A stretch of DNA of 63,994 nt, filler included, from Streblomastix strix (Eukaryota), in the NCBI GenBank assembly GCA_008636045.1. It is 3 parts of 3 records of this genome, joined end to end, with 100 filler letters (N's around TTAATTAATTAA, not from the genome) between each part and the next. Parts side by side here need not be neighbours in the genome. Positions count along the whole stretch, not along the records: positions 43,239 to 63,994 come from SNRW01000415.1; 2 more parts are not named here. One strand, written 5' to 3'. Shown in pieces: positions 21,528 through 63,994 of this stretch. Numbering within the stretch: position 1 is the first letter of the stretch; each line of letters starts with the position of its first letter. The notes under the pieces were generated by a model. That model searched no databases. It had not been told where the DNA came from and was given only the letters and a program-made list of their open reading frames with translations. Position numbers and translations under genes: made by a program.

Positions 21528-21627
21528 NNNNNNNNNNNNNNNNNNNNNNNNNNNNNNNNNNNNNNNNNNNNTTAATTAATTAANNNNNNNNNNNNNNNNN
21601 NNNNNNNNNNNNNNNNNNNNNNNNNNN
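21528..21627. other. Artificial contig-join linker N44-TTAATTAATTAA-N44
   Basis: Exactly 100 nt; identical to 43139-43238. Confidence 0.97.
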
Positions 21628-41169: not shown

Positions 41170-41209
<40 letters not shown>

Positions 41210-43138: not shown

Positions 43139-43238
43139 NNNNNNNNNNNNNNNNNNNNNNNNNNNNNNNNNNNNNNNNNNNNTTAATTAATTAANNNNNN
43201 NNNNNNNNNNNNNNNNNNNNNNNNNNNNNNNNNNNNNN
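43139..43238. other. Artificial contig-join linker N44-TTAATTAATTAA-N44
   Basis: Same 100-nt structure as 21528-21627. Confidence 0.97.
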
Positions 43239-43239
43239 T

Positions 43240-43554
43240 TATATGAAGGTAGATGATAAGGAAAAAATAAAATTAAAAGGTGTTAATCAAAATACTAATA
43301 AAATTACTAAAGACTAAATAGTTGATAATATAACCAATGGAACGATTACAAAATGCACAAATATGCGGTTAGGTTAAAAGAATTACCAAATGAGCAAATT
43401 AGCTACAGAAAAAAATGGAATTACGGGAATACACACAAAAATGGTGGTACTAAGTGATTAATCATGTTGTCCTTACATTTATGGTTTGAAAGCAAGTGAT
43501 TATACGGTCTCTGAGCATTAGCGTGAAACCATTTTTGATAAAAAAGTTTAATGA
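43240..43554 (+). CDS. C-terminal fragment of a protein-primed family B DNA polymerase
   Basis: YMKVDDKEKIKLKGVNQ...KNGITGIHTKMVVLSDQSCCPYIYGL; KxKGV motif and a terminal PY/F pattern typical of pPolB ends; viral context. Confidence 0.65.
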
Positions 43555-43570
43555 GCCAAAAATAATAAAT

Positions 43571-44242
43571 TCAATTCTTGGATATGATTATTTTTATGAC
43601 CATGGAACCATCAGGTTATTTATCTATATCGCACAAAATGCCTTTATGTTAATTTTAATCAATTTCTGGCCCTTTTACCCATTGCAAATTCTCCAATCTA
43701 TCATCTAAATAATTTTTATTTATGTGTTCAACAATAGATAAATTTTAAGGATTAGGTAAAAAATGTGTTGCTATTATTTTATCCAAGAAATACACCTAAC
43801 CATCTAATTTAATTTTGTGAAAACCATCTACTATGTCAATTATTTTAATATCTTTACTGTCTATTATTTTTATATGATATGGATATATAGTTTCTATCGT
43901 ATAATTCGGATGGTCTCGTAAGATATCACACAAAATGCCTTTATGTTAATTTTAATCAATTTCTGACTCTTTTACCCATTGCAAATTCTCTAGTCTATCA
44001 TCTAAATTATTTTTATTTATGTGTTCAACAATAGATAAATTTTAAGGATTAGGTAAAAAATGCGTTGCTATTAATTTATCCAAGAAATACACCTAACCAT
44101 CTAATTAAATTTTGTGAAAACCATCTTCTATACCAATTCTTTGAATATCTTTACTGTCTATTTTTTTTATATGATATGGATATTATGTTTCTATCGTATA
44201 ATTCGTATGGTCTCGTAAGATATGCGGATTATCAAATCCCAT
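43571..44242 (-). CDS. Protein made of two tandem HNH-endonuclease-like domains (223 aa)
   Basis: Twice IATHFLPNPQNLSIVEHINKN(N/Y)LDDRLENLQWV, matching the HNH_3/NUMOD-type pattern AxxFIPNPxNLPxVDHINxxxxDNRxxNLxW; 297-bp in-frame duplication. Confidence 0.8.
43627..44223. repeat. 297-bp tandem duplication (99 codons)
   Basis: Copies begin at 43627 and 43924 and are similar throughout. Confidence 0.95.
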
Positions 44243-44270
44243 TTTATAAGCTAATAAAAAAATAAAAAAT

Positions 44271-44639
44271 TCATACCGATTATTTTTATGGCTAATTTAA
44301 TAGTTTAAGATATAAAATATATCTCCAATGAGTTGCCAGTTCCATATCTTTTTATTAAATTGCATCATTCAAAAATTGTTCGATTTGTTATACGGTTAGC
44401 TAAGACCAATTTATTTACGGTTCATTCTTGCTCATTTTTCTTTTATAAAAAAATTATATAACATAAACCGTTATATTTAGTGGTACCAGCACTATATCAA
44501 AATATCCCCATAACTTCTTAATTAAATTAACGGTATCGGTCAGCTGCTCAGGAATAGATACAGACAAAACAGATATAATAAAATTAACACCATAAAATAT
44601 ATAATTCATTAGACTCATAAACAAATTCAATAAGTTCAT
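44271..44639 (-). CDS. Viral hypothetical protein with hydrophobic N-terminus (or two small ORFs, the second starting at 44435)
   Basis: MNLLNLFMSLMNYIFYGVNFIISVL...VIQFFYKRKMSKNEPQINWSQLTVQQIEQFL...QSV-TGA. Confidence 0.55.
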
Positions 44640-44657
44640 TTTATTATTTTTAAAAAC

Positions 44658-45674
44658 ATGACACTGCAAGAGATATAGGGCATAACATTTTCAAACTAGG
44701 ATTTACTAAACGAATATAAAACACGACCACTAACCAAAAACTCCTTATTCCTCGTTAATGGAAACCATTATATTGTTGGAGCTGTTGGTTCAGGTAAAAC
44801 AACATTAATGTCCAAGCTAATAGTTATATACTAAAAAGTAATCAATCCATACATATTATACTTTTCAAATTTTGGTGCTGACGAGACAATGGCATTAAAT
44901 CTTAATAGTAAAAACATATCACTAACCAATATAACATATGGGGAAGCAATGTTGTTTTTACCAGAATTTGATGAAATAAAATATTCAACAAAAGAAGTAT
45001 ATACTTGGTATAAATTGCATGAGTAAGGTTTTAAATATACCAGTGATTTTATAAAAAGAGTCGAAGAAAAAATAATATAATAAAATGAAGCTAAAACTAA
45101 TGAAAAGTCAGAAGTTTATTTAAAACGAATAGCTGATTTGTTCAAATAATATGTTATAGAAACCATAAATAAATATAGCTAGCCATTTAAAATATTACAG
45201 TTTGATATTCCAGCACTTATATAAAATATTAGCTATGAAAAGAAAATGAAAGTAATAGATGATAAACAAACAGCTGATATAAAAATAATGAAAATACCAG
45301 TACTTTTTAAGGCATAATTGTTAAATACACTAATGCTTTTTGATGATATTGGAAGTAATGCCGATATCCAACGTTTTAATTCTTCACTTGCTAAATCAAT
45401 TACTCATTTGGTTAGTGATTCAAGGCATTCGAAAAATACGATATTTTTTATAGCTTAACGTCCAAGTTATTTGTTTAAGACTGCAAGGATATTATCCCAT
45501 GTAATAGCTATAGGGGTTAATCTTGGAGAGAGTGATTTCAAACAAGTATATGAAGAAAACACGATATAAAACCTTGATTTTGAAGAGTTTTTACTGCTAT
45601 ATTCCACATTATAAAAATATGAATTTATTATTTTAAATAAGCTTTTCAGCAAGTATGAAATATTAAGAAATTGA
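44658..45674 (+). CDS. A32-like (FtsK/HerA) genome-packaging ATPase, 338 aa
   Basis: Walker A IVGAVGSGKTT, Walker B LMLFDD, SRHSKNTIFFIAQ (RH...Q motif, Gln = TAA at 45456), KTAR; intronless. Confidence 0.92.
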
Positions 45675-45693
45675 TAGTTTTGTAGGTAAATAA

Positions 45694-46086
45694 ATGACTT
45701 CGTGCTAAGGCTCTCCGAAATCACCGTGTGATCCTTCAGCAATTCCTGATGGAATGGATTAATTGTATTAATTAGCCACAAACATTGGCCTATAATATAA
45801 TGCTACGGACTATGAAATTTTCAAAATATTTGAAGCATTAAAAGACGGAGGCTTACGACTTCCTACGGAAAGCCCCCATTGCGGACAAACTGGAGTAGAA
45901 AATAATGATATGAATGAACAAGAAAAATAAATATATCAATAGTTTAAAAGCCACTTTTTTTAACAAAAAATGCCGCAAAGCGACTATTGTTTTTAAGAAT
46001 CTTTGCAGGATAAAACTGTGTAAATATTAGAATATATTTAATACCTCAATTTATTGATGCGGTTAAATTCATCAAATAATAATTGA
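45694..46086 (+). CDS. Viral hypothetical protein; 3' end uncertain
   Basis: TAAATG start; MTSCQGSPKSPCDPSAIPDGMDQLYQLATNIG...; open to TGA 46084, overlapping the convergent ORF by about 40 nt. Confidence 0.55.
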
Positions 46087-46522
46087 CCAATCCACTATTT
46101 TATGTATCATTAACAAAGTCATTATATATTTATTTTTCCTGCTCATTAGCTTCAGATATAATGTACTTTTTTATTTGTTATGGCTAGTTATTTTAATCTA
46201 GTTGTTTTTTAATACAATTATATTTATTTTTGAAATATTTTTCTTACTCGTTGAACAGTTTATTTTTATAATCTTCTGCATCAACATACTGCTTTATTTG
46301 TTGTAATTTGTTTTACTAATTCATGAACAACTTATTTATTCTGGTTAGTTCTTAGAGTAATGGGTGCAGTATTATTTCTTTATCTTTTATTAATAATTTT
46401 TGCAGTGCGTCAATTGTTGCCTTTATTGAATCATCACTTTCAAAATTTTATTTAATTACTTCATTAAACAATTATTTTATAGGGTTTTTATTATCAATTG
46501 CTATAGGTGTTGGTGAGGACAT
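46046..46522 (-). CDS. Viral hypothetical helical protein (158 aa)
   Basis: TAAATG start; MSSPTPIAIDNKNPIKQLFNEVIKQNF...; no TGA until 46048. Confidence 0.65.
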
Positions 46523-46597
46523 TTATTTAAAAATAAATAACAATTTATAACAAAATAGTCCAATAATTAATGACTGCATTAGCATGAATGAAATGAA

Positions 46598-48649
46598 TCA
46601 TGGAGGTACTGACACCAAAGTAATAGGTTTAGCACGCTAATATACTTTTGCCCCATCGCTATAAAATCCCCCTTCTGTGCCTATACTATTTACACCCCAT
46701 AAAATAGGATTCCCTGCTGAATAATTAACTGACCCAGCCGCAGGCGGAGTCTATGACATTGTTGCTCCATTTGTTGCACCAGTGCCAGCTATAACTGACC
46801 CATTAAATGTTAAAGTATTTCCATCAGCGGATATTTATAAACCTTTACCAGATGTATTTTAGCCAGCTGTACGCACTATATTTAGCGTTCCGTCACCCTT
46901 TTTATATATTGACCATTATTTATCTATGTATCCAGAAGTAGTATTTGGATCACAACCTAATGATATTAGGCATAAATTATTTGTTGTATTAGCAATTCGT
47001 AAACTTTCACTATAATTTCCAGTTTAAGGATTAATTTAAAATGGAGATTAAAACATATTCGCGAATAATTAAAACCTAGTTGTGTAATCAGTAGGTAATG
47101 CATCAACCATATCACTATTTAATACATTTGATATCAAATCTGGAAATGTATTTTATCTCGATAGTTGTATATCAACACTATTACTCCACGCGTTCATATT
47201 ACACCATAACTCTCCATAGCCTGTAGTTCCTGACCCATAATATAAAATATAAGCTCTTTTTAAAAATGTGTTAGATTCAAAATGATAAGAGTATTGACCA
47301 ATTCCATTAGTGATATAATTTTAATTGAATTGTATTAATCCAAACGCATACCTGCAATTAATGTAAAATTCAACGGAAACATTATTTGATTAATTATATG
47401 GAATAAATTAACATAATTTAATATATTTTTCTGTAGTTGATACATAATAATTATTTTTAGCTAAAGCTACTTTTTTAGTTGTCCCATCAGCTAGTAGTAT
47501 TTCATTATTTGTGCCATTTGTCTTCTTAATTGTATCAAATGTTTTTATATCAGTAATGGTTTAATCAGATGCTATATCTACTACTCCGTTTATTGCATCA
47601 CCATTAGCGCAAAGTATTTCCGTAGCCAATCCTCCAGTCTTAATAAATTTGGTCGCGGTAATGTTTCCATCATATGTTAATTACTATGGATGGACATGGT
47701 CATTTCTACTATAAAAATCACTCATACCATTAGCCGCAGCAGTAGCATTTACTAACGGAACATTTGCAGTTGTTGGATCAACATTTAATGGGTGCTAATG
47801 TGTGGCACTGGCATATATATTAGCAGTGCCTGCTGTTCCTGTTCCCGTATCTTTTAGTGGTACGTCATTACTTAGATTTACATGATGCGTATGGTCAGAC
47901 CTGACATAAGTGGTAGCAACTCCTGCCTCACCATTTGCAGTATCTTTTGCAGGTAAAACAGTTGAAACTTACAAAGGATGTTAATGGTCTCCTCTTGCAT
48001 ATTCATTACTAGTTCCTGCATTACCATTTACAATAGAGTTTGATGGTATTGCATCACTGGCAGGGGTTACCTAATCAGGGACCACATCTCCACTCTTATA
48101 CCAATCAGCCGCAGGTGGGGATCCTGTCATATCATACATCCATACTGTTCCACTTTCTGTACTAAATGCAAAATCACCACTTGCTGAATTAGGCAAATTT
48201 TATATGACACTATTCAACAAATAATATCCACGGAAATGTATTTATCTCGCTAGTTCTTACTAAATAGTTAACACATCATTTTTTAATCCATCAATATCTT
48301 ACTCTACCCCTCCAATTGATGACTATAACTAGTTTACTTCATTAATTAACTAGTTAATTTATGCAACAAAATCAAAGTTTATTACCTTTAAATTCTTTAT
48401 TGTAAGAAGCCCATTTGGTGCTATTTTGAGTGCATAATCAGCAGCATAACCATCAACTATTTAGTTATTAGCTGCATAAACTAGTGCATTGTCATTATCT
48501 ATAAACAGTTAGTATTCATCATTTTGCAACATGCCACCGCTAGAGCTTCCCCTTTTCTAATACTGTATATAATACGCTATATCATTAGTGATAAGCTGGC
48601 GAACTGTTCGGATTTGTTGCTGTGTTAATGGATTATTTTAGGTAATCAT
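46598..48649 (-). CDS. Tail-fibre-like virion protein (683 aa) with coiled coil and HxH repeats
   Basis: YARGDHQHP, YVRSDHTHH, YASATHQHP, YSRNDHVHP; GGLATEILCANG, QTITDIKTF, GTNNEILLADG. Confidence 0.8.
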
Positions 48650-48700
48650 TTTAATTTTGCAAAAATAAAAAGTTTTACATGCAATTATTGGATATGGTTA

Positions 48701-48907
48701 TCACCGTTTATTTACGAGTCGATCTACGGCTCCTGCAAGATTAGCCCCAGCACCTAGTGCTCCACCAATTCCTGGGTGTATCATTCCTACAGGGCCTGAT
48801 ATTGTTGATAGTACCTTATGAAGAGTTGGTGCTACCCATTAAGCTGCATGCTTAATACCTCCCAAAATTTTACTTCCGATGTTTGCTATACCACTGAAAA
48901 ATCTCAT
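48701..48907 (-). CDS. Small Gly/Ala-rich amphipathic protein (68 aa), candidate membrane-penetration or core protein
   Basis: MRFFSGIANIGSKILGGIKHAAQWVAPTLHKVLSTISGPVGMIHPGIGGALGAGANLAGAVDRLVNKR; divergent from the MCP gene. Confidence 0.75.
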
Positions 48908-48931
48908 TTATTTATTTTTAAAAATATTAAA

Positions 48932-50924
48932 ATGTCGTTCTCAGCATCTGACTACCTTTAAAGACTATCCAAAATGCAACACTCCGACTACATTAGTGGA
49001 TACATGCAACTTGGTGAGGTGTTAAAAACACTATCAATTCATGCCTAATCCTTCGCAATTTCTAAGCAATAATTTTTTGACTGACCAGTAAATTAGCTTA
49101 CATCATCAGGTGTTAGATATACACGTGCGCCGTTGGCTGCTAGAGGTACAGCAACTTGTTCAATGGTATAAACCTGCTAAGTAAATTGGACTATAACAAT
49201 CCCAGCAAATATATTAGCTGTATAACTAAATAGATGTGAAGATTCAGGAGGTGACGAAGACGAATTAAGAGCAAGGGTTAATTTTAATGCAAATAATGAC
49301 CTTGCAGAAGACCCCAAGATTATGACATAATTCTACAAAAAATATTATGGTAAAACTGGTGATGGTGAAGAAAAAAGTGAACATCTGAAGTTTTGGCTTG
49401 GTTTCTCCACTGCTTGCGAACCCTTTAATTAGTTTGCAATATTACGAGATGCTTAAAACTTATAGAATACAGCAATATATGCGAGAGAGTAAGCAGTTAT
49501 TTGTTCAAATTCATTAACAGATTTATGCACCAATAATTCCGTCAGTGTCTCACCACTCGAGTCCATCATTGCTGGCAAACGTCATTGTGGTATTTTTATG
49601 GATATTCCACTTAGTGATATAGATTTATAAGCTACAGTAGCAGATGGATAACCAAGAACACCATATTATTTTAGAATACCATATGATATAAAATTTAGCG
49701 GTGTATTAGATTTGAACTAATTAAATCCAATTTTTAACTCATTCCCAGTACTGACAAGAAACTATGCATCATTATACTTATAGCTATGGGTGTAGGATTT
49801 CCTTTAAGATTTAAAAAATTGTGTGGCTAAATAAATCAGATGTTATGTAAAATAATCATCTTGCATATGCAATGATTCCACCAGAGAAGCCAGACGTCGT
49901 TTATCTATTAAGTAAAGAAGAGGATGAGGACCCACAGGCATATTCATTGTATAATGTTAGGCTCGTTAATATGTAAAATGTTGCGAATAACGCAAAAGTA
50001 CCATAAAATTCCATTAGTCAAATATCAGATTCTAAATTCGAAGAGCAAGAAATATAAAATGTATGTTTTAATATAGAAAATGAAGAGGCAATTATTCAGA
50101 TGATATAAGCCTAAAGAATAATAAATTTCCCCACACAAATCATAAGGTCCTAATCTTCAAATTTTCCCTTCAGTGGTTTTTAGGCTGTTTCTGGTAGTAT
50201 GTAAAGTATAATGTCATTTGCTAATATAAAGGCACTATTCATGACATTTGCCATGCCACAATATCCTACTTGGTTTTTCCCTGTATTATTTTATAACTTT
50301 AATTTAGTTGTTGATTAAAAGAATTTAATACCATAACCATATAAAGCACTGACCCAAACAACTAATAGCTAAATGTTTGATTGTTTTGTTGATTAGGATG
50401 TTGTAAGTGCTCCATCAGACCTATACCATTCACTTACTTTTGAAAATGTAAATGTTGATGATAAAAACAATTTTTATGGATATGTTGACCCTGCAGGTGA
50501 TGTAGGAACTACTGCTAATATATTTTATAATACAACATTATACAATGGAAGCAAAGCCACAAAAACATTATACCCAAATAAGTTTATGCTGGCATGGAAA
50601 ATGGCAACTGATGACTCATTTATGAGAGGTTAAAACTCTTCAAAAATTGGTGCTAGGACAAATATTTAAGTGATTTTAAACGGAAATTTGACTAAAGGAA
50701 TTGTAGATACTACAAAATTATATCCATCATAGAATTAAAACGATTTTAAGCAATTTATTGGTATGCGTAGCTATCTGGATCCTCACCAGGTAGCACTGAC
50801 ACCTATCATGCACTATTTATGTGATGCATTTATTCGCATAACTTTTGATGTTAACCCAGACCCATAAGTATTAAGCATGGATGTTATTGGAGAAATAGGC
50901 GGTTCATCAATTAGAAGCGGATGA
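48932..50924 (+). pseudogene. Probable double-jelly-roll major capsid protein (about 660 aa) with one in-frame TGA and one +1 frameshift
   Basis: Long intronless beta-rich ORF near the ATPase and fibres; VLDLNQLNPIFNSFPVLTRNYASLYLQLW; TGA at 49082; extra A in the run near 49813-49818; span 1993 nt = 3n+1. MCP identity rests on size, context and composition. Confidence 0.65.
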
Positions 50925-50984
50925 GGTGATTAATGGGCTAAAAATAAAATTGGTTTATCATTATTTTTGTTTATTATTCCTTTC

Positions 50985-51036
50985 GGCCTGCTTTGCAGCC
51001 CTTACTTTTTTAACAAAAATGCCGCCTCTGGCGACT
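50985..51036. terminator. Bidirectional hairpin plus T-tract element between convergent viral genes
   Basis: Plus: GGC(C)TGC-TTT-GCAGCC then CTTACTTTTTT; minus: GTCGCC-AGA-GGCGGC then ATTTTTGTT directly after a TGA; related copies at 45955-45985 and 54220-54246. Confidence 0.5.
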
Positions 51037-51176
51037 CATCCATGTATTGAATTCCTAACCTCTTCGCTAATTTCTTCGCTATCCATTTTTATTTAAGCTA
51101 TCACCAATATACAACCAAGCAAATTATTACAAGCTATAACTATTAATGATATACTAGTTATTATTTCCCAAATCAT
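51036..51176 (-). CDS. Small viral single-pass membrane protein (46 aa)
   Basis: TAAATG start; MIWEIITSISLIVIACNNLLGCILVIAQIKMDSEEISEEVRNSIHG. Confidence 0.55.
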
Positions 51177-51201
51177 TTATATAAAAATAAAATTAAATTT
51201 T

Positions 51202-51327
51202 TCACCGGCAAATTTTCGATTCGCAAGCATATTTGATTGCTGCATCCCAAATAGCCTTAAAGATTGCATGCCAATTTATATTTAATTATTCAAGCGAATA
51301 TATTACTGTTTCATTAAATCCGTCCAT
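51202..51327 (-). CDS. Small viral ORF (41 aa)
   Basis: TAAATG start; MDGFNETVIYSLEQLNINWHAIFKAIWDAAIKYACESKICR. Confidence 0.5.
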
Positions 51328-51345
51328 TTATTTATTTTTAAAATG

Positions 51346-52251
51346 TCAACCTGATTAATTATAAACAGCATATGAATCACATACTTATACACAAAAATCA
51401 TTTGGCAAATTAATTTGGCACTACGTATTTATTACAACATTACCGTTAGGATTAATATAACAATCCATAGCAATTGCACCGGTCCAATCTATTGGATAGC
51501 CATATACTTTTTACGCAAATAAAACAGCATTAAGGGGTATGTTATGTGTTGTGCCAGAAAATTTTGGTTTTATGTCGTTATTGAAGATAGAAAATAATGT
51601 ATATCCCCCGTAGCATGATGTGCTTGGATCTGAATGAGTTATTTACAGAGATATATATGCACGTTCTTTTTAAGATTTTACGGTACCCCAAATTAATTAT
51701 TCATACCTACCATAAGCAATAGACCAATAAATTGCATATTCGATAGGGACAGGAGGAAGAGGTGATACAATTTAATTGTTAAATTTAAGTGTTGAACATT
51801 CGAAATCGATAATTATACCCTTATAATCATATGCTTAATCTTCTTATTTTTATATCCTAAATTACGATGAAGTTGAACCCATTTTCCATACCCCGTCCGT
51901 ATCTGTGGGATCAACGTTGCAACCAGTGAGCACAAAGCTATCCCAATTCGCTTTATTTTTCATTATCCTTATGCCTTAATTACGTATGTCATCATTTGGT
52001 TCTATAGTCAATTAACCCATCGCGTGAGGAAAATATTTAGGCAAAAAATTCCCTGTGTCTGTAGTATCACCATTAGCGAGTAAAATTTCATTGCTTGTAC
52101 CTTTATTTTTAATGAATTTTTATGCAACAATAGGCTATAAAAAAGTCTTTACTCCGTCTATTATTTGACTAGTTCGTAAATTTACGTAATCAATTGAATT
52201 TCTGAAAAATTGACTTAAATAGTTAAAGTATTTAATAATTTCGTTATCCAT
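51346..52251 (-). CDS. Second fibre-like protein (301 aa; in-frame upstream ATG at 52392)
   Basis: YVNLRTSQIIDGVKTF, FIKNKGTSNEILLANG shared with the first fibre; beta-rich C-terminal head-like region. Confidence 0.75.
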
Positions 52252-52416
52252 TATTTATAAAAGAGTATTTTTTTATCTAGTTTAATTTTGTTATTCTTCT
52301 TGTATTTTTTATAATCGTTTTTATTCTTCCTACTAGTTTTTCAAATCATCATCGTCTAACAGCGATAAATCGCTAATTGGTTAATCAATCATTTTATTAT
52401 CCAAAAATAAATCATA

Positions 52417-53082
52417 TCATTCGTTTTACATAATAATCAATACAAAATAATTTTCAAAAATCATTTTCTGTTATTTCCATCTCTGGTGCTTCGCTTGAAC
52501 GGATGAAATCGCAATTTACTCGATAAAGTTTTTCAATAGAGTTATATATAGCACATTATCCAACACTTTTACAGACACATTTTTTATTAAAATATCTTAT
52601 ACTCTAATAAGGTCCTTTTTCTTGAATTTCTTTGATATGCAAGTGTGTGGTTATATAATTGCTTCCTCAAGCACTATTTCAACATCATTTTCATCATTCT
52701 GCGTGATCAGTGCCCAAAATTTTATAAAATTATCAGATGAAAAAACAAAATCATCTCCGCGTTATCTGTGGGTAATGGTGCGCCAGCACGTATCAATTAC
52801 AAACTTTTATACTATGAGATTAGGATGTGATAGGTATATACTTTTTGGTTATTCTTCTGCTAACTATTAAAATGCCTCTTCCGGTAATACTTATGCGGTT
52901 GTTCTATCAACCTCTTTATACTTATTTATGTTATATTTTTTATGTGGTATGTTTTCATTCTAATTTTATTGTGCTGTTTCTTAGTCTGTTGGCATTGTTT
53001 TTATACGATTAATTGCTTCATCGATTAGTTAGAGTCTAATTTTATCCTCATCTGTAAGCTCTTTTTTCTTGATATCCGACAT
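52417..53082 (-). CDS. Viral hypothetical protein (221 aa)
   Basis: TAAATG start; MSDIKKKELTDEDKIRLQLIDEAINRIK...; open to TGA. Confidence 0.65.
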
Positions 53083-53160
53083 TTATTTTTTACTCTTCGA
53101 CATTCTTACTTGATTTCTTTCAATACCCTTAATCATTTTATTAATTTTTAAAATATTAAA

Positions 53161-53826
53161 ATGGAATTATCGCATGCTCTTAAGAATTTGATAGAAAATG
53201 GAACAAATATTGAATACTTTGATAAAGATTATGTGGTATAGATTAATAAATAAATAAAGGTATATGAAGACGGCAAAAAACAACTGCGAAAATTGACACA
53301 AACATAATAAAATAAGCTATTGCTATAAGCTCGTGGAGGGGGATAAATAAATAAAAAACCATCAAAATAAATAGTTTAAAAATAAGCTGTGGATGAAGAA
53401 GAAGATTTTATAAATTATGAATAATAGGAGGAAAGACACCGAGATATACAGGATGATATAAATGAAAGCGATGATGAAACAATTAGCCAAAGCGAAAGAC
53501 CCGAAAGGCCAATAAAACATTTCCGTGAGGCTAAACAACCACATAAAAAAGTTATAAAAGCATCAAAATAGCCATAAATCAATTATACAAATCAATAGCT
53601 TAATTTGGAAGAATTAATACGTTTAAGAACTGAAAATAATTTTATAAAGTAATAGCATTAAGACGCTATAAAATAAATAGAGAAATACAAGCAAAAAGTA
53701 AAACGTTATAAACAACCAAAATAAGACATTGAAAAATAGGAAGAATAACAAGATTTATAACAAGAGCCTATATAATAAAATTATTAGCCTGAATAAAAAT
53801 TTAGCGAATATGATTTATATAATTGA
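53161..53826 (+). CDS. Viral hypothetical acidic/coiled-coil protein (221 aa)
   Basis: MELSHALKNLIENGTNIEYFDKDYVVQ...; upstream TTTTAAAATATTAAAATG as at the MCP gene. Confidence 0.7.
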
Positions 53827-53854
53827 AAGAATTATTTTTTTACTAATTATAAAA

Positions 53855-54142
53855 ATGAATATTAATATTATCGATATAGACGAATAGGGTAAAATATGTG
53901 CTATTGGTAATATTCCATGGAATAATCTACATAAATTTTAGTTATCAAATAATTAACTACTTTTAACAATGAACCAAATAAATGATTACTAAGAAAAAAT
54001 AAAAACAATTAACGGCGATGAACTTTTTAATTATATTAGTGAAATGCGGGTGCTTAGTGAAAAGTAAAATAAATTACGTAATGAATATGTAAAACAAGAA
54101 AAATAACGCTATCGTTAAAAGCTAAAAGAAATGGATGATTGA
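53855..54142 (+). CDS. Viral hypothetical protein (95 aa)
   Basis: MNINIIDIDEQGKICAIGNIPWNNLHKF...KEMDD-TGA. Confidence 0.6.
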
Positions 54143-54428
54143 CTTTTTGGCACATTGGCGGCTCGACTGGCTTTTTTTATGACAATTTTTTACCCGGAAC
54201 ACTCGGAACACCTGGAACGGTCCACGGCTATGGCATTTTTTGTTAAATCTCCATGCTAAAATTATTATATAAATTATGTGTATCCATTATTTGTTGTTAT
54301 ATATTGTTATAAATTGATGTGGTGGCTTATTGGAGATATTTTTTTAAAAAGCATTTTTTAACCGTTATTTATTTATTTTAATTATTTTATATAAGGGGTT
54401 TATATTCATTATTTATTTTGCACATTAA

Positions 54429-54677
54429 AGTAGTATATGATGGTTATTTATGCAATAACTTCAAAAGGTATTAGAATTTATAAAAAACCACGCAAGTTCT
54501 TTTTTTTAAGTTGATGGTCTAACAAATGCAATAATATTTTCGAACAAAGGCGTTAGCCAGCTGTGAGAAAATTTTATAAATTTGAAGGCCAAAAATCTTA
54601 AAAAATGAAGGAGTGGAGATTTTTTATAAAACTGAACACTTTTGAAGTTGGGGCATAAATCACCATCATATACTACT
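54429..54677. repeat. 249-bp imperfect palindrome with AGTAGT...ACTACT ends
   Basis: Outer 39 nt of the two arms match at 35 positions; similarity continues inward to a GGC-GTTA-GCC centre at 54549-54558. Confidence 0.9.
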
Positions 54678-55991
54678 GACATAGCCAACTCATGTTGTTC
54701 ATATTTTATTCTTATATTGTTTTAATTATTTGTTATAATTTTACATTTACAAAATTTTATTTTTCATTCATTTTTAACTTAATTTATTTTTACAATTTTT
54801 TTTTCGTTGAAAATCATGTGTCCTAAGTTATGGAAACTTAAATATATTGTTTTAATAAATTATCTAATATATATAGATTTACTCACACAATTTTTTATTG
54901 ATGATCAATTTTTCATTGTAAACAAAACTACAAGGTATATAAATTCAAAAACTATAAAAATCGTTTACGATTTACGAAAAATCGAACTGGTTGTAGTTAT
55001 AATGTGGTAGTATCAATTAAATTTTCTAAAGATTGCATAATATAAGACAAAATTTTTGTTGTATTTCACAGAAATGACCTCAATTCTTTTGAGAGCCAAG
55101 AAATAAAGGAGACGAAATTTACTGTGATTGTGAGCATATCATAAAAAATTGCTCTAGTAATTCTACTTTAAAGAGTAATTTCCATATTTCAGACACAAAT
55201 TTAAATCTTGTACTACTTCCTATTCATTTGATCTGCACTCGAAAACTCCTAATTATTCCACACCGCTATCTTTTATTTAAATTATTTATTTTATTATGTA
55301 TTTTGATGTTTCTTCCAATATTTTGTACAAATATATTTATAATTTCCTACATTATTACTGTTTTAGTTGGACAAAAATATGCGAGATTTAAATGCTTCAT
55401 TTCTCATAATCGACATTATTTAGATCATTTCCAATTGTTCATAATTAAATAATAGTTTATTGTTCACAATTTATTAATATAAATTTTTTTGATCATATCT
55501 TTTCAAAGATGTTATGCTTCTGGGAATTCATTTCATTTTTCCTACATATTTTTTTTATCCTTTGATTTTTTTAATTATTTTGTTTTTTAATTCTTAATTT
55601 AGAACATCCGTCTTATGCATTTATCAATTATAAAACTATCATGTCCAAGTCAGCAACTGCCGTATACTTGTTTATAATTGCCAGAAATAGGTTACAACTG
55701 CTGCACGCTGGTTTGCAACAGTCACAGACTTGTACATACTGGATACTGATTGATGGCTGAAAAGCATTTATTATCTATTAATTTGTATATCAAATACTTA
55801 ATTTTATGACTTCTAAGCTTCGCTCCTCAATTTATTACTCAATTTTCATATTTCTTTCCAAATAATATTTGATATTATTTATCTATAATTTTAAAACTAT
55901 CAAAATATTACATTTCTTTTCATATTCAACTTATTTTTATTATTAATTTATTTATTTAATATCTTAATCCTCGCGTTTGCTCAGTTTATCA

Positions 55992-58469
55992 ATGTCAACC
56001 ACTGAATAGTAATTTGAAGTTATTTCTGATTATGCTGGAGTTAAAGGAGATACAAATTATATTGCTGTTATGAAAGGAGATGTGGTTCGATTGATAAAGA
56101 AGGATAAAGAATGATTCACAGTTAATAAGGATGAACGTATTGGAAAAGTACCTAAAAGAATATTAATTTAAAAGTAGAACTAAATTTCTTAGATTCTGAT
56201 GAATTTTCCAATATAAACAACATAAATTGTTCCAAAAGCAAAATAATAAATGAAGACAAATAACAACAGTAAATCGAAATCCCCAATAAAAGTATAATAA
56301 ACTTCTAATTAAAAATAATCTAATAATCTTAATTCATTAACTTATTCTCTCATAACATCAAATAAATAAAAGCCAAAAATCTTTCCTCCACATCCAAAAG
56401 CACAAATCAAACTTCAATCTGACAATTAAATATAAACAGTATACGAAATCAAGTCGCAGTCTGAATCTAATATTACAAAATAAGAGATAAAACAATAAGG
56501 TAATTAATTTAATATTTAATCTGTTTCTCCATTAGACAATTAATAATCATAAATCAAATCTGTCATTCAAATAGATAAATAATAATCATAAATAACTCCA
56601 CTTCACTCTAATGCACAAATCAAACTACAATCTGACAATTAAATATAAACAGTATACGAAATCAAATCGCAATCTGAATCTGATACTACAAAATTAGAGA
56701 TAAAACAATAAGGTAATCATTTTAATATTTAATGATGTAATAATTATTATTCTAATAAATAAATAAATAAATGTTTATTATTATTTATATTTTCATTAAA
56801 ATTGTATTTTTTTGATATTTTACTATAATTAAATTACTAAATTAAATTCCTTTCATTCGTATTCAAATTTATATCTTTTATTTTCATCAAATATTTTGCA
56901 GCTTCAAAATATTAATTAGATCAATTGCATTAAATAATTAAAGATATTCAATCCATTATTGAATCAAAGACAATTAATGATGAAGAGAACGAAATGAAAA
57001 TTAAAGAAATATATACTAAATTGAAAAAGAATGATGAAGATGAATTAAAAAAGATATTTAATAATGATGCATTCTAATTAATTCTAATTAACATTAATGA
57101 TTGCATCTCTGGAATAGAGAAGATATTGTTAGATATAATAGAATTAGTTGCAGTAAATGGAGTATAGATGCATGATGATGATGGTTATTATGAAGATCCT
57201 ATCTTCGAAGATATTCAGACATCTGGACTCTTAACTAAGATTAAATAGATAATATAATATAAAACTGAGAAAGAAAAGGAATAAGAGAAATATTCAGTTG
57301 AAACGGAACAATTAATAAGGATTTGTATTCAGATAATGAAAGGAAGATAAATTGAATAATAAATGATAGATATTTCTGTTAAAATAATTGAAAAGAATTT
57401 AATTAATTTATTAAATATAATTAATAGCATAAAAGAAGATAATAATAAAGTTATTAGTGATGAATAAAACAATGAAGATACAGAAAGAGAAATAAAATAA
57501 TCAGAATAATTAATAAAAGTAATTTCATTGATTGGAGAGGAAAATCTGAGAAGTTAGATGAATAAAGTAAGAATTCCAGATCAGATCATGAAGATTGTGA
57601 AAGAAAGAATATGCCCACTTTTTCATTTAAATTGTCCATCTAATATCAATTGCTAATAATGCATCAAAATTCCACAATCTCCTGCTTTAATAGATTTGAA
57701 AACTGCTGTATTCTAAACTCTTTCTGATGTATCATTGAATAATTGGTTATTCACTAACATGTTAGTGAGTGACCATAACATCATCCCCCATCTTTCTCCA
57801 TTCATAATATCATTTGCATCCTAATTTCAACTTGATAAGAAAATAAACTCATAATAATATCATAATTAATTATAAGAATAATTCACTTCTCTTTCACTTA
57901 TATCATCTTCTCTAAATATCCTTAAAAGTCTAATTAATAATAATAATAAAAGTAAAGAAGTTACTAAGATATCTAACAATCTCTATTCACTTTCCATACT
58001 TACAATCTACAAGATCAATATTCACATCAATTAAGAATATGATCTATAAACATTATCTATCAGAAGCAGAAGTAGAAATTGTCTGTGGGTTATTCAAATG
58101 TATAGTGATGCATCTGCCCAATCTGAACTTGTGGACGTTGGATATGCTAGAGTGTTTACCGTTGCAATTAGTGCATCAGGTGGCCATGGTGAATAATAAG
58201 ATCAGGAGATCTTTAGAGGATTGCATTCAATCTTCTTCTTCCTCAATTATCTTCAAGGTGCTTATTCAATGCCACTTCAACCTCTTCTTGTACGAAGATC
58301 AGTTGAACAAATTGAAGAAGAAGGAGCAATTGAAGAAATTGATGCATAATTAATAAATGATGGACATTACAATTGTAATATCAAGGAATAAACAAACAAT
58401 GTCAAAAGAATGATTTTGAACTACTTTATTAATAAAAGTAATCGAAGACCATTTTAATTTAACCGTTGA
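55992..58469 (+). CDS. SH3-domain protein with internal repeat and the same C-terminal family domain as 8625-12769; in-frame TGA in the SH3 (possible pseudogene)
   Basis: FEVISDYAGVKGDTNYIAVMKGDVVRLIKKDKE*FTVNKDERIGKVP; intron 56713-56901; ASKYQLDQLHQIIKDIQSIIES... Confidence 0.75.
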
Positions 58470-59146
58470 ATTTAATCCGATTCACACATGCTAATTAATT
58501 ATCTCCTTCTTAATATTCAATATTTAAACCTTTTCAACTTTGAATAATACTTCTAATCACACACTTTATCATCTACATTATTAATTTATTTCGTAATGAT
58601 TAATTAGAGTGCACAACACTGTATAATTAGAGTGATACCTTATTTAAATTTTTATTATTATTATTATTTATCATTTATTCATCATTCACAACACAACATG
58701 AGTTCTTTTATTCTTTTTCTGTTATCTTCACACATTCATCTAATTTATTTTTAACTTCCATATATATTTGTATTTTTTAATTATTATTTAATTATCTGTT
58801 ATATTTAACATTTAATATCACTTCGTGAACATATTTGTTTAGTTGAGTGTATCTTATTATACAAACTGACAGTCTGAAATAAAATAGAAATACTGATCTA
58901 TATATGAATAACTTATTTAAATTACAAACTAATGTTTTATTTCTTAATCAGCGAAAATGAATCATTTTAATGATATTATTAGTTTATTGAATATATGAGT
59001 AAAGTTTAAACAATAAATAAAGTCTATTCTTATATTAAATACATTAAAATCGTATTTTCTTTCTCAAAATTTAATATTATAAACCATAATTAGATATAAG
59101 TATGTTCGTATAATACTAAAACCATATAGCGCTCTTGGGCTGACCG

Positions 59147-59209
59147 GAAACTTTGATTTATTTGAGTGAAACTTTGATTTATTTAGTGGAAACTTTGATT
59201 TATTTGGTT
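59147..59209. repeat. 21-bp-period tandem repeat, GAAACTTTGATTTATTT core x3
   Basis: Copies at 59147, 59168 and 59189. Confidence 0.9.
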
Positions 59210-59728
59210 TGTAAATTTAAAATTAATTTGTCTGTTTATTACATAACTTGGATGTTTTAAAATTATAATTTATTTCTATTATTTTATAAATAAAACATTA
59301 AACTATTATTTAGCTATAATTTAAACAATTAGCTAGTTATTGCAACAAAAAAATAATTTTTCACATTTTTCCGTTTTGAGCCACAAAATCAAAAATTATT
59401 TCTTTAATTTTTAACATTAATAAATATTAATTATCTATTAGAAATATTTTAATTTTCAATTTCAAATTATAATGGAACTCTGGTCCAAAAAACGAATTAA
59501 AAATTTTTTTAAATGAAAAAATATTTTTTTACTCCATTTTCACATTAAACTAAATTTATACAACATTACAAAATTTATTTTTACTTATAAATAAGCGATA
59601 AAATATTTTTTTGTAATGATATATAACCCCTTTTTTCTACATACTTAAATTAATTTTTATTATAAATATTTCATTAAACAATCTTTTTATTATATTATTT
59701 ATAACAGAGATAAATTTCTCTGCAGGTA

Positions 59729-62700
59729 ATGGAAGACGAATCAGACAGAATTCCGCTTTCAACTCCAAGAGCTAATATTACAATCAGGACTTTACGATAG
59801 AACAACGAGGTCAACATTTTATTTTAATTGGAAGAAATTTTAAATTATATTCTAATAATATTTAGATAGTAAATGAAGATGAGGAAATTAGAAAGAACGA
59901 AATGAATCGCATTTTGTAAATTGAGAATGATAATCTTCGAAGATAGAAAAATGAAATTGAAAAAAATTTTAGGGAAAATATTTCCAATCTTGAAATTTCT
60001 CTTAGAGAAGAAAAAGAATAGCATGAAAAACATTATAATGAATTAAAAGAAGCCAAACTTTAGCTTTAAGAAAGGGTAAATGAAAAAATGAGGAATGAAA
60101 GCAAAATAAAAATACTTGAAGAATAACTTAAAAATGAAAAATCAATTTCTGAAAATGCTTCAAAGAAATCTGACGAAGAAGAGGAGAAAAGAAGATAAGC
60201 AGATGATCAGAAGAAGAAAGAAACCGAAGAAAAAGAAAAATCTCTCAATTAAGCAACAGATTTATAATAAAGGTTATTTGAAAGTGAAAGAAAAAGTGCT
60301 GAGATTGAAGTTTAATTACGCACAATCAAAGATTAATACAATAAAGAACAATAAAAATCAAAAAAACTTGATGATAATCTAATTGAAACAACTGAGAAAT
60401 TAAGTACATGTGAGAAAGTCTTGAAAAGGACTAAAGAAGAAAAATAATTAGAGTAATCAAAATTAAAAGAATAAAATGAACATGATAGAAACATTTTAAA
60501 TGAAAGAATTGAAAGTTTAGAAGAATAACTTGCTAAATCTGAAACATAAGTAAAAATTAATTAAAATAAATATGAATCTTTTGAAAAATAACTTGAATAA
60601 GAGAAAATTTTGAGGATTGAATTTGAAGAAAAAGAAAATAAAGTAACAAAATAAAGAGACAACGAAAAGCAAATTAAAGAATAATTGGATATTGAATTGA
60701 AAAAAGAAAGAAATCTGAGATAATAATTGGAAAATGAATTAAAAATTACATTAGAAGATAAGAAAAAAGCTTAAGAAAGAGAAATTCAGACATAATTAAA
60801 ATTTGAAAGAAAAGAAGAAGAAAGAAGAAAAGCCGAAGAAAATATGAGATTTGAAATATCAAAAAAAGAAGATGCAATTTATGAAGCAAAAAATGCAGAA
60901 GAAAATCTAAAGATTTAAATTGAAAAACGAAGAACTGCAGAAAAAGAAACTTCAGATTTGAAGTGGGAAATTGAAAACTTAAGAAGGAAATATGAAAGTC
61001 TTGAAAAAGATTTTGTTTCCGAAAAAAACAATCGAATGGTTTTTGAAGTGAAATTTAATGCAGAAGTTTAAGGATAAGAATAAATGAAGATTGAATTTGC
61101 AGAAAAAATTGAATAGATGAATATAGTGCATAATAAATAAATTGAAAAATAAAAAGCATTTGTTGCATAAAAGGAATAGTTAAGATAAGAATCAGAATTA
61201 TTACAAAAGAAAGAAATAGAATTAAGAGAAAAATCTCTAAAACGAGCAGAAATAGCTGAAAAAACAATCGCAGAAAAAGATGAATAGATTCGAATTGCAT
61301 AAAATGATTCAAAAATAAGAAATGAAGAATTTGAAAAAATGAAGTAAATTGTTGAATAATTAACTTAAAAAGCAAATGATGAAGAAAAAAGAAGAAAAGA
61401 ATCGGAAATTTTAAAAGGAGAAATTGAAAGGGAGAAGTTTATTTTAAAATAATAAAATGAAAGGATTTAATATGAAGTTTGGAGACTATTGGAAAAATTT
61501 GGAGAAGAGAAGTTTGATGAAGTTAAGAAATTGATTGAAAAGAAGGAGAAAGAAAAAGATGATGAAATTTAAAGATTGAGAACAGAGAATGAAAAAGAGA
61601 ACTAAAGAGCTAATAATGCTGAAGAAAGAATAAAAATGATTGAATAATAAAAAGAATTATTGAATGAATAATTAGAACAAGTAAAGTAAGAGAAATAATA
61701 AGAATAAATTTTGAAGGAAAATGAGAAAATTAGGGCTGATTTTGGTGAATAAAGGATTCTCATAATTGAATAAGAAAAATAAAGAGAAATTAATGAGAAA
61801 AACAATGAAATGAAAAGAGCAGATAATGCTGAACAAAGAATAAAAAAATTGAAATCAAAAAAACAAAAAGAAAAATAAAGACAGATAAAGGACTTAGGAA
61901 AGGTAACAAAAAAGAAAAATAAAGAGAAAGTTCACAAGGAAAAAGATAAACATCATAAAGAAAAAGAATAAAGAAGGCCAAAAGATGATGAAGGAGAAGT
62001 ATAAAATGAAAAAAATGATAAAGGAAAATAACATAAAAGAGAAGAAGAAGAAGAAGAAGAAGAAGAAGAAGAAGAAGAAGAAGAAGAAGAAGAAGAAGAA
62101 GAAGAAGAAGCAAGAGTTCGTAGATTAGAGAAAGAATTTTAGAAGGAAAAATTAGAGAAAGAAAAGAAGGAATAAGAACTGTAGAAAGTAAGAGATGAAA
62201 TTGAGGATATATAATACAAGATTGCATATTGTTATTGTTATTATTTATTTAATTTATAATTATTATTTTTTATTTTATAATTTTTGATATAGATCTTCCT
62301 ATCGCAATTATTAACCCAGATCCAACATATATAAAAATAATTGATGTTGAAGGAAAGATGAAAAAGATAAGTAAAATACAATAGAAGAATAATATTATTT
62401 CTCTTGCTCAAGTTCTTGAGAATGGAGTATACCAAATGGAAGCAGTTTTCACAGAAATTGGTAATAGATGGATGGGTATGAAATCTCTTTTATTAATTAA
62501 GTATAGCAATCATTATATCAATTATTAATTATATGATCTTTAATATTAAGGTATTGGAATTGTGAGAGACTCATTCAACATTCTTGATGATATTTTTCCA
62601 TTCAGCAGTCCTTGTATGAATATATTAAATAATTGTTAATATTTATTTATTTAATTTTTCAATATTTTTAATAGATAAAGAATAAATGATTGTGTATACT

Positions 62701-63136
62701 GGAGCGTATGCTTATCATTTGTATATTTTTAAATTATTAATTTTATATTTATTTATATTTATTTTATACTTATTTATATTAATTTTTAGTGCAAAAAGTG
62801 GATATATTTGCTATAAAGGAAATGAAATAATGGGAAATACTTAAATTCAAAACGATAAGATTGTAAGAGCTGAATTTGATTCATCAAAAGGAACTTTGAT
62901 CTTTTTCCTTGATAGCATTCAATAACCGGTTTATATTACTGGAATTAAAGAGAAAGTCCGTTTCATGGTATACAAATCTATATAAAAAAGAAGTTTTCAT
63001 ATCATTTATAATTTATTTGATTATTTGATAGATTTATATGTACTCAGCAAATTCATCTTGCATTATTCGGTCTCTGAAAAAACTTGCAGCCCCAACCTCA
63101 GTTCATGTGCCAAATGAGAAAGCGATATAGTGGTGA
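59729..63136 (+). CDS. Long coiled-coil protein with poly-Glu and C-terminal SPRY/B30.2-like domain
   Basis: MEDESDRIPLSTPR...; E/K/Q-rich exon; IGIVRDSF, VRAEFDSSKGTLIFFLDSIQQPVYITGIKEKVRF, ends EKAIQW-TGA. Confidence 0.8.
62041..62109 (+). repeat. (GAA)23 coding microsatellite (poly-Glu)
   Basis: Direct observation, in frame. Confidence 0.95.
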
Positions 63137-63856
63137 AAAACTCAAGTGAAAAAATGATAAAAAAAAATAAAATCTAATTGAATTTTCTAAACTCATTCCC
63201 AATATTTTTCTGTTTTTTTCTCTTTCATACACATTAAACATTCACACGAGTGATTTTTATTAACATCAAAATTAATATTTAACAATAAATTAGCATCTGA
63301 AATAAATTGTCCAAATATTTTCAAAATTGTTGGAAATTTAAAGGAAGTTTGCATTACTTCATTTAGTTCCTTCAAAATTTCTATAAAACTAAATTTATTC
63401 TACCACATTTGAATAATAATTTTAAACAAATAACTCTGATATATCAATAATCAGAATAAAATTATTTTTTCATGAAAAATTGCTAACATCAGCACTAATT
63501 TAGTGAATTATTGTATTTATTTTAATTATTTTCAATAATTTGTATAAAGTATTTTAAAATAATACACAAGTTTAAACAAATCTAATTTCTATCAAGTGCA
63601 TTTTCCAAATTAAAAAAATTCATTTATAATAATTTTTTCCTAAGTTTTTTCTACTTAATATTTAAATTTTAATCATTTTTTTATTTTTTTAAACACTATT
63701 TTATTTTAATGAATAAAAGCAACAGATAAAATACAATTTTTGTCTTATAAAATTTATTTCATTTCCCACGAAACTATAATTGATCCACTTAGAAAACCCC
63801 ATCTTGGTTGATTTTAAGTCCACGAATTTGCTTAATTTATTTTTTGCTTTATAAGA

Positions 63857-63994
63857 ATGAGTTAAGACTCCAATAACCGCTTTAACGCTTATCAGTTGAT
63901 AGAACAAATTGCCGGAGACGCGTTTGGAACAGTTTACAAAACAAAACGCACGTATGATAATGTAATGTTTGTGATAAAAGAAGTAGAATTTGAA
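63857..63994 (+). CDS. N-terminus of a protein kinase (NEK-like), truncated by the window end
   Basis: MSQDSNNRFNAYQLIEQIAGDAFGTVYKTKRTYDNVMFVIKEV: degenerate Gly loop plus the VAIK-equivalent lysine. Confidence 0.7.

What the first reader, a model, noticed from the sequence alone, without database searches (positions are those of the whole stretch)
43239..54677. Endogenous Polinton-like virus fully rewritten in the host's TAA/TAG=Gln code
Seen: about 14 intronless, tightly packed ORFs that open only with TAR=Gln and end in TGA, inside an intron-rich host. Even the conserved Gln of the A32 ATPase RH...Q motif is TAA (45456). Known: pPolB, A32 ATPase and a jelly-roll capsid define Polintons/PLVs. 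Inference: a virus lineage adapted to a recoded host and invisible to standard-code annotation, with an unusual morphogenesis module (two fibres, an amphipathic peptide, small membrane proteins). No integrase, protease or penton is recognisable in the visible part.
Basis: partly seen in the sequence, partly recalled or inferred. Interest (0 to 1): 0.93.

Follow-up and report, generated by a model that had tools for sequence, protein, structure and literature searches.

The report
Integrated oxymonad virus using host's code
This is one end (11 kb) of a Polinton-like DNA virus, likely integrated in the genome of the termite-gut protist Streblomastix; its genes read TAA and TAG as glutamine, as the host's do, a match already published, but its capsid protein is likely a second, undescribed family, and in this copy the capsid gene is broken.

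Summary
Observation mostly confirmed. 43239-54677 holds 14 packed, intronless genes that open only with TAA/TAG=Gln: the C-terminal end of a protein-primed polymerase, an A32-type ATPase, a capsid gene whose intact relative models as a double jelly roll (Z 21.7 to PBCV-1), an HNH nuclease, two fibre-like genes and small ORFs. It ends in the Polinton motif ACTACT-like (TACTACT) at 54677. Corrections: the left edge is a contig start, not host DNA; the capsid gene and two others are broken; the genes are already in NCBI under Streblomastix strix. The headline is published: Bellas et al. 2023 state that S. strix endogenous viruses use the host's code, and this scan noted code-matched viruses in two other genomes. 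Gln codon use equals the host's (74.9% vs 75.6% TAR), so this looks like long residence, not special adaptation. What may be new: this roughly 650-aa capsid family (258 hits) appears distinct from the published Metamonada group (0 of 64 members hit DUF4106; no positive control), has 21-28%-identical relatives in unnamed records, some on 20-22 kb contigs, and ends in a 249-bp palindrome. Integrase, penton and protease were not seen.

The parts
43139..43238 (.). Artificial spacer between two contigs (N44-TTAATTAATTAA-N44); not biology. The element is cut here.
   Evidence: an identical spacer at 21528-21627
43240..43554 (+). [quoted passage not shown]
   Evidence: 46 longer relatives, 68-94% identical; 5 of 10 relatives scanned pass PF03175, E 1.5e-8 to 2e-7
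43571..44242 (-). HNH nuclease with two tandem 99-aa (297-nt) units
   Evidence: PF13392 E 5e-10; PHROG 959 E 5e-21; repeat 94%
44271..44639 (-). 122-aa ORF, weakly hydrophobic N-half; role not shown
   Evidence: best 19-residue hydropathy 1.65
44658..45674 (+). A32/FtsK-type packaging ATPase, 338 aa, intact; Gln of RH..Q is TAA at 45456
45694..46086 (+). 130-aa ORF, no family
46046..46522 (-). 158-aa helical ORF, no family
46598..48649 (-). 683-aa fibre-like protein: coiled coil, four 31-34-aa spaced (D/T)HxH repeats, motif shared with the second fibre-like gene; fibre role inferred
   Evidence: no family or PDB hit
48701..48907 (-). 68-aa amphipathic, Gly-rich peptide, head to head with the capsid gene, 75-97% conserved in other copies; membrane-lytic role inferred
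   Evidence: no PDB hit
48932..50924 (+). Double jelly-roll major capsid gene, broken in this copy (TGA at 49082; one extra base near 49813)
51036..51327 (-). Small gene with one strong hydrophobic segment, apparently frameshifted near 51205-51220
   Evidence: three-frame reading, hydropathy 2.45; break not checked against other copies
51346..52392 (-). 348-aa second fibre-like protein (coiled coil, shared motif, beta-rich C-terminal part); fibre or vertex role inferred
   Evidence: no family or PDB hit
52417..53136 (-). About 230-aa ORF; two extra bases at 52543 relative to other copies
53161..53826 (+). 221-aa charged, low-complexity ORF
53855..54142 (+). 95-aa ORF
54143..54428 (.). Non-coding subterminal region, likely the inner part of the terminal inverted repeat; 44% GC patch with three 9-bp tandem repeats at about 54192-54218
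   Evidence: its partner at the left end is not in the window
54429..54677 (.). 249-bp ungapped imperfect palindrome, AGTAGTATATGATGG at both outer ends; right terminus of the element (TACTACT, 54671-54677)
54678..63994 (.). Host-like flank on the same contig: SH3-like piece, multi-copy ORF family, coiled-coil gene, a gene with apparent GT-AG introns

Best explanation
This is the right-hand 11.4 kb of a Polinton-like DNA virus, likely integrated in the Streblomastix genome, whose genes read TAA and TAG as glutamine at the host's own rate, whose capsid protein is predicted to be a double jelly roll of a likely undescribed family, and whose capsid gene is broken in this copy. Shown: gene set, code, fold of an 87%-identical intact relative, AGTAGT-type end, hundreds of related copies with shuffled gene order. 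Inferred mechanism: the linear genome is copied from its ends by the protein-primed polymerase, pumped by the A32 ATPase into a double jelly-roll capsid carrying fibres, and inserted by a retrovirus-like integrase that would lie in the missing left part or be supplied by another copy. The virus has no translation genes in view, so host ribosomes read it: TGA as the only stop is obligatory, and Gln codons then drift to the host's ratio. The consequence is a host-range lock, since a standard-code cell would stop these genes within 4-12 codons. Genes are expressed from very short T-rich/A-rich start elements, three of them shared by divergent pairs 18-24 nt apart (inferred). The terminal palindrome most likely arose by fold-back or template switching at the end and puts a second copy of the conserved 25-bp end signal 249 bp inside (inferred). 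This copy is most likely defective and could be packaged only with capsid from another copy.
For: Capsid: AlphaFold model of P0003 from 64 rows, pLDDT 83.4, pTM 0.87; all 22 listed Foldseek PDB rows are double jelly-roll capsid entries, best E 6.6e-11; VIA Z 21.7, rmsd 4.1 over 350 residues to PBCV-1, top 16 rows all viral capsid or scaffold proteins, 4-10% identity; ESM Atlas features 0.95 to Capsid_N, Capsid_NCLDV and Sputnik_MCP clusters. ATPase: Pox_A32 above cut-off in 4 of 14 aligned sequences. Polymerase. Code. End motif matches (AGT)2//(ACT)2 of Mavericks (PMC8097293). Multi-copy: 258 capsid, 39 ATPase and 46 polymerase clusters, every listed row labelled S. strix (120, 39 and 46 rows); summed contig depth in run X1 is 1,087-21,420 in 22 of 23 bins over the element and 139 and 125 in the next two bins (not a copy number). 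Linkage in other copies: neighbouring labels on equal-length contigs (P0293/P0336, P0303/P0052, P0100/P0346, P0027/P0357) and 29 gene models that span two or more of these genes. 16 S. strix capsids form one side of a long branch, SH-aLRT 100, quick tree only. Distinct family: 0 of 64 aligned members hit DUF4106 at E 10; the published S. strix hits all fall in one cluster whose seen members align over about 550 aa and are about 32% identical to Trichomonas; none of the four labels seen there is among the 120 rows listed.
Against: No integrase, penton or protease seen, and the left end and target-site duplication are missing. The window's own ATPase does not reach Pox_A32 by itself. The fold is of a relative, and a first model from 29 close rows had pLDDT 40.6 and no fold match. 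The contig across the join has only 28 bases inside the element, under the tool's 31-base bar, and X1 may be the source sample. DUF4106 had no positive control here, 138 of 258 hits and 63 of 213 profile hits were not listed, and the supplement is cut before the S. strix rows, so the family may already be inside the published 820. Stops and frameshifts in short-read assemblies of such elements are often artefacts (PMC10120064). The start motif (12 of 13 starts, 8 of 471 other ATGs) was drawn from those same starts.
Confidence: 0.8

Rival explanations
1. Same kind of element, but simply one of the 820 Metamonada-group capsid hits that Bellas et al. 2023 already counted in S. strix; nothing here is new.
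For: Same host, same code, same fold. ESM Atlas puts Preaxostyla and Parabasalia clusters first, 0.96-0.97. By eye the printed cluster-40 sequence has the same order of strands in the first jelly roll.
Against: No DUF4106 hit in 64 of 64 members; length about 650 against about 550-560 aa; four cluster-40 labels absent from 120 listed hits; three short motifs of the cluster-40 sequence absent from all proteins fetched.
Confidence: 0.3
2. The copy is intact in the cell, or the contig is a mosaic of several near-identical copies; the breaks are assembly errors.
For: Published caveat for multi-copy elements in short-read assemblies. Contigs of all four runs lack the extra base at 49813 and the two at 52543; at 40 listed places most depth shows another letter.
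Against: Those contigs are mostly 90-99% alike, as other copies would be. Many deposited relatives are also fragmentary. Several independent breaks lie in three genes.
Confidence: 0.3
3. Free viral DNA was joined to host DNA by an amplification or assembly chimera.
For: Only 28 bases of the bridging contig lie in the element, and it comes from one run.
Against: The join falls exactly at a canonical AGTAGT-type end; the 312-nt contig has no mismatch and depth 45.7, like its unique neighbours (31.5-36.6); relatives lie on many contigs up to 41 kb.
Confidence: 0.07
4. A standard-code virus decayed after insertion, and its TAA/TAG codons are tolerated nonsense mutations.
For: The copy shows decay in three genes.
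Against: 200 TAR against 1 TGA in 3,347 codons; TAR columns are Gln-enriched in distant relatives; TAR share equals the host's.
Confidence: 0.02
5. The 249-bp palindrome is a separate miniature element made of two ends, inserted beside a truncated virus, so the true end lies left of 54429.
For: Both outer ends carry AGTAGT; arm identity falls from 24 of 25 at the ends to 10 of 24 at the centre.
Against: Its flanks (CATTAA, GACATA) are not a direct repeat; no other terminal motif was found nearby.
Confidence: 0.15

Closest known systems
Metamonada-group Maverick-Polintons/PLVs of Streblomastix strix and Trichomonas vaginalis (Bellas et al. 2023, PMC10120064; passages and supplement searches)
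   Same: Same host species label, same TAA/TAG=Gln table, double jelly-roll capsid, hundreds of copies.
   Different: Capsid about 650 aa, no DUF4106 hit, labels do not overlap with those seen; gene map, terminus and codon counts are not given in the passages seen. A 2026 preprint (10.64898/2026.06.19.733378, passages) says Metamonada elements remain ungrouped.
Maverick-Polintons (Polintoviricetes) (PMC8097293, PMC4028283, PMC11071308; passages)
   Same: Protein-primed polymerase, A32-type ATPase, double jelly-roll capsid, AGTAGT-type end.
   Different: Integrase, penton and Ulp1 protease not seen in the 11.4 kb present; gene order varies between copies; capsid 4-10% identical to solved ones.
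Tlr elements of Tetrahymena thermophila (PMC4028283; passages)
   Same: Capsid-coding integrated element in a host that reads TAA/TAG as Gln (the host's code is recalled, not from a call).
   Different: Tlr has a superfamily 1 helicase instead of the polymerase, and a recognised penton.
Palindrome-ended virophages and PLVs of Halocafeteria seosinensis (10.64898/2026.07.28.741278; passages)
   Same: Palindrome at the very end of an integrated element.
   Different: There 52 nt in the subtype drawn and tied mostly to elements without the protein-primed polymerase; here 249 bp, imperfect, AGTAGT at both ends, in an element with that polymerase.

Membership tests
Polinton-like viruses (Preplasmiviricota, broad sense) | [quoted passage not shown] | tested here: met
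   Model of an 87%-identical intact relative
Polinton-like viruses (Preplasmiviricota, broad sense) | A32/FtsK-type packaging ATPase | tested here: met
   Pox_A32 above cut-off in 4 of 14 aligned sequences, not in the window's own; motifs conserved
Polinton-like viruses (Preplasmiviricota, broad sense) | [quoted passage not shown] | tested here: inconclusive
   No profile hit; unassigned ORFs were not folded; left part missing
Polinton-like viruses (Preplasmiviricota, broad sense) | 14-40 kb genome with terminal repeats | tested here: inconclusive
   11.4 kb and one end present; contig starts inside the polymerase
Maverick-Polintons (Polintoviricetes) | Protein-primed family B polymerase | tested here: met
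Maverick-Polintons (Polintoviricetes) | Retrovirus-like (RVE) integrase | not testable with these tools
   Not in the visible part; no genome held
Maverick-Polintons (Polintoviricetes) | Adenain/Ulp1-type protease | tested here: inconclusive
   No hit in the visible ORFs; left part missing
Maverick-Polintons (Polintoviricetes) | (AGT)2//(ACT)2-type end motif | tested here: met
   TACTACT at 54671-54677, read inward as AGTAGT; one end only
Maverick-Polintons (Polintoviricetes) | 6-bp target-site duplication | not testable with these tools
   Left flank is not in the window
Metamonada (MMN, cluster MMPC_40) capsid group | Capsid of the DUF4106 family or about 30% identical to the Trichomonas capsid | tested here: inconclusive
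   0 of 64 members hit DUF4106 at E 10, but no positive control and no direct alignment; leans to not a member
Metamonada (MMN, cluster MMPC_40) capsid group | In S. strix, uses the host's TAA/TAG=Gln table | tested here: met

The most novel reading that the evidence does not exclude
A family-level lineage of capsid-coding DNA viruses that no profile or published group covers: it radiated to hundreds of copies inside one recoded oxymonad, where it shares the genome with the known Metamonada group; it has distant relatives on 20-22 kb contigs, possibly whole free genomes from other hosts; and it combines a protein-primed polymerase with a 249-bp palindromic end and fibre-like proteins in place of a recognisable penton and protease. 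That would give a recoded branch and sister branches in which to trace how a virus crosses a genetic-code barrier.
Probability: 0.4. Interest if true: 0.62.

Novelty: new member of a known kind. Interest (0 to 1): 0.42.

Why it matters
The code match itself is known, so the value lies in the lineage. A 2026 framework preprint left Metamonada elements ungrouped for lack of genomes; a second, very divergent capsid family with relatives in other samples would help place them and would mean the viral share of the S. strix genome was undercounted. The equal Gln codon ratio in virus and host gives a simple measure of long residence, and predicts a hard host-range barrier. The palindromic end in a polymerase-coding element does not fit the proposal that such ends go mainly with other replication genes.

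Tried and rejected
No genome is held for the window, so other copies could not be mapped. Pattern scans for relatives found nothing: alignment A1 in metagenome and viral contigs, the terminal motif in both, four distant capsids in viral contigs; these scans back-translate and may miss recoded genes. The first capsid model (29 close rows) failed. Sequence searches of the PDB gave nothing useful for capsid, ATPase, peptide or fibre-like proteins. Pfam, PHROG and NCBIfam name only the HNH gene among the window's own viral ORFs. The absence of integrase, penton and protease hits is not evidence of absence. No RNA holder listed. Frames in 54100-54700 were read as a possible polymerase and rejected. 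The maximum-likelihood search did not finish; only the quick tree is used, long branches meet in it, and no root or order of events is claimed. No ATPase or polymerase tree was built. The fibre-like proteins were not folded and no complex was predicted. A closer look at contig ends around the join is lacking, so whether other copies stop at the same base is inferred only. The egovirus preprint had no relevant passage; the original Polinton paper was not held under the id tried. Look-ups of earlier scan notes by sequence and by place were empty.
Full report
Layout of the window. The window is three contigs joined by 100-base spacers at 21528-21627 and 43139-43238. The finding starts at the first base of the third contig. 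P0011, labelled Streblomastix strix by its source, is 100% identical to the capsid query over 65% of its length and lies on a 20,756-nt contig, which is the length of window 43239-63994. The adaptor-subunit gene left of 43139 (Pfam E 1.2e-14) is therefore on another contig. No whole genome is held.

The observation. Fourteen intronless genes lie between 43240 and 54142. The 13 tallied cover 92% of it and hold 156 TAA, 44 TAG, 54 CAA, 13 CAG and one internal TGA in 3,347 codons. Five segments tested under the standard code stop at codon 4-12. Open frames are cheap when only TGA stops, so I tested the code on distant relatives: with the window's Gln codons masked, ten unnamed capsids have Gln in 51 of 298 cells at TAR columns (17.1%, the commonest residue) and 212 of 5,216 (4.1%) elsewhere. 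The ATPase Gln at 45456 is TAA and invariant in 14 of 14 rows. Nine long host-like ORFs of the window, chosen from 23 by low content of F, I, L and Y, use TAR for 462 of 611 Gln (75.6%) against 200 of 267 (74.9%) in the element, Fisher p 0.86.

Identity of the genes. Polymerase: the first 104 codons are a C-terminal end with 46 longer relatives, of which 5 of 10 scanned pass PF03175. ATPase: 39 relatives; Pox_A32 passes in 4 of 14 aligned sequences, not in the window's own. Capsid: 258 hits, the 120 listed all labelled S. strix. A model of P0003 (81-86% identical to the two halves by tblastn, 87% by blastp) from 29 close rows failed (pLDDT 40.6); with 64 rows including 16 distant ones it reached pLDDT 83.4 and matched double jelly-roll capsids: Foldseek E 6.6e-11, VIA Z 21.7 with rmsd 4.1 over 350 residues to PBCV-1, 16.5 to mavirus, 16.2 to Sputnik. 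The ESM Atlas agrees. An HNH gene carries a 297-nt tandem duplication. The two fibre-like genes share a motif and the longer has four spaced HxH repeats, but nothing in Pfam, PHROG, NCBIfam or the PDB names them, the 68-aa peptide or the small ORFs. The likeness of the peptide to adenovirus protein VI and of the repeats to phage tail fibres is recalled, not tested. Phage-like fibres are common in PLVs (PMC12220804, passages).

State of this copy. The capsid gene has TGA at 49082 and changes frame at 49815-16. Contigs from all four runs laid lack one base at 49813 and two at 52543. The small hydrophobic gene at 51036-51327 also changes frame. The copy is probably defective, but Bellas et al. 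show that such breaks are often assembly errors in multi-copy elements.

The right end. The element ends in TACTACT at 54677, matching the (AGT)2//(ACT)2 end of Mavericks (PMC8097293, passages). The 15-mer AGTAGTATATGATGG occurs perfectly twice, inverted, at 54429 and 54663-54677 (3 matches at up to 2 mismatches in the window, 0.18 expected). The 249 bases between form an ungapped palindrome, 24 of 25 matching at the ends and 10 of 24 at the centre; folding z -11.7. Its flanks are not a direct repeat. In run X1 a 312-nt contig covers 54650-54961 with no mismatch at depth 45.7, and summed depth drops from over 1,000 in 22 of 23 element bins to 139 and 125. Only 28 of its bases are inside the element, under the tool's bar of 31, and X1 may be the source sample, so the join is supported, not proven. 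Contigs from two other studies also lie on the element at 90-99% likeness. To the right lie host-like genes, one with apparent GT-AG introns. Terminal palindromes are described for Halocafeteria virophages and PLVs (10.64898/2026.07.28.741278, passages; lead from e1-7220831), mostly in elements without this polymerase.

The family. Mis-spliced gene models of other copies join the same genes in other orders: polymerase beside ATPase, ATPase beside either fibre-like gene, peptide beside capsid (29 models). Sixteen S. strix capsids form one side of a long branch against 13 unnamed rows (quick tree). The unnamed relatives are 21-28% identical, 8 of the 10 looked up are 599-696 aa long, and four records lie on contigs of 20.0-21.8 kb; their hosts and codes are not known. 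Twelve of 13 starts share a T-run then A-rich context against 8 of 471 other ATGs (motif drawn from the same starts), and three divergent pairs are 18, 24 and 24 nt apart.

How it likely works. Shown: parts, code, end, copy family. Inferred: end-primed replication by the polymerase, packaging by the ATPase into a fibre-bearing capsid, insertion by an integrase outside the visible part. Host ribosomes translate it, so TGA stops are forced and Gln codons drift to the host ratio; in a standard-code cell the genes would fail at once.

What is known. Bellas et al. 2023 (PMC10120064; passages; supplement searches) state that S. strix elements use the host's table and count 820 capsid hits, all in one cluster seeded by the Trichomonas DUF4106 capsid. 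Tlr elements of Tetrahymena are an older case (PMC4028283, passages; host code recalled), and a code-6 giant virus genome is reported (PMC13524828, passages). This scan noted code-matched viruses in two other genomes. The present capsid looks different from the published cluster: about 650 against about 550-560 aa, 0 of 64 DUF4106 hits (no positive control), no overlap with the four labels seen. The supplement is cut before the S. strix rows and the figshare files were not seen, so this is likely, not shown. A 2026 preprint leaves Metamonada elements ungrouped (10.64898/2026.06.19.733378, passages; supplements closed). PMC11071308 and PMC4196379 were read as passages for defining features. Ten paper searches found no other paper holding both Streblomastix and Polinton, and none on oxymonad Mavericks; subscription journals are largely outside the library.

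Verdict. A real Polinton-like element in its host's code; the headline is known; the capsid lineage and palindromic end are probably undescribed. New member of a known kind, interest 0.42.

Noticed in passing
window 44640-44657, 48908-48931, 53137-53160: Three divergent gene pairs are separated by only 18-24 nt around a T5A4-5 core; candidate minimal two-way promoters.
   Followed up: partly
window 55992-56192 (+): Host SH3-like piece (Pfam E 0.008) with an in-frame TGA where SH3 domains usually have Trp (recalled); probably a pseudogene.
   Followed up: partly
window 11182-12769 and 56870-58469: Two 75-84% alike copies of a long intronless ORF family on different contigs; no Pfam hit for the second; raised contig depth over it.
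   Followed up: no
window 39893-42035 (+): Intron-rich adaptor complex medium subunit gene, on the preceding contig.
   Followed up: partly
window 62250-63117 (+): Host-like gene with apparent GT-AG introns, no Pfam hit for the two frames scanned.
   Followed up: partly
window 54192-54218: Three 9-bp tandem repeats in a GC-rich non-coding patch of the subterminal region; possible protein-binding sites.
   Followed up: no
P0199, P0272, P0213, P0223 (unnamed records): Distant capsid relatives on contigs of 20,640, 20,007, 20,667 and 21,847 nt, the size of whole Polinton-like genomes.
   Followed up: partly
P0356: A deposited model named elongation factor 1-alpha contains an 82%-identical piece of this polymerase, a sign of false splicing across viral inserts in the annotation.
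   Followed up: no
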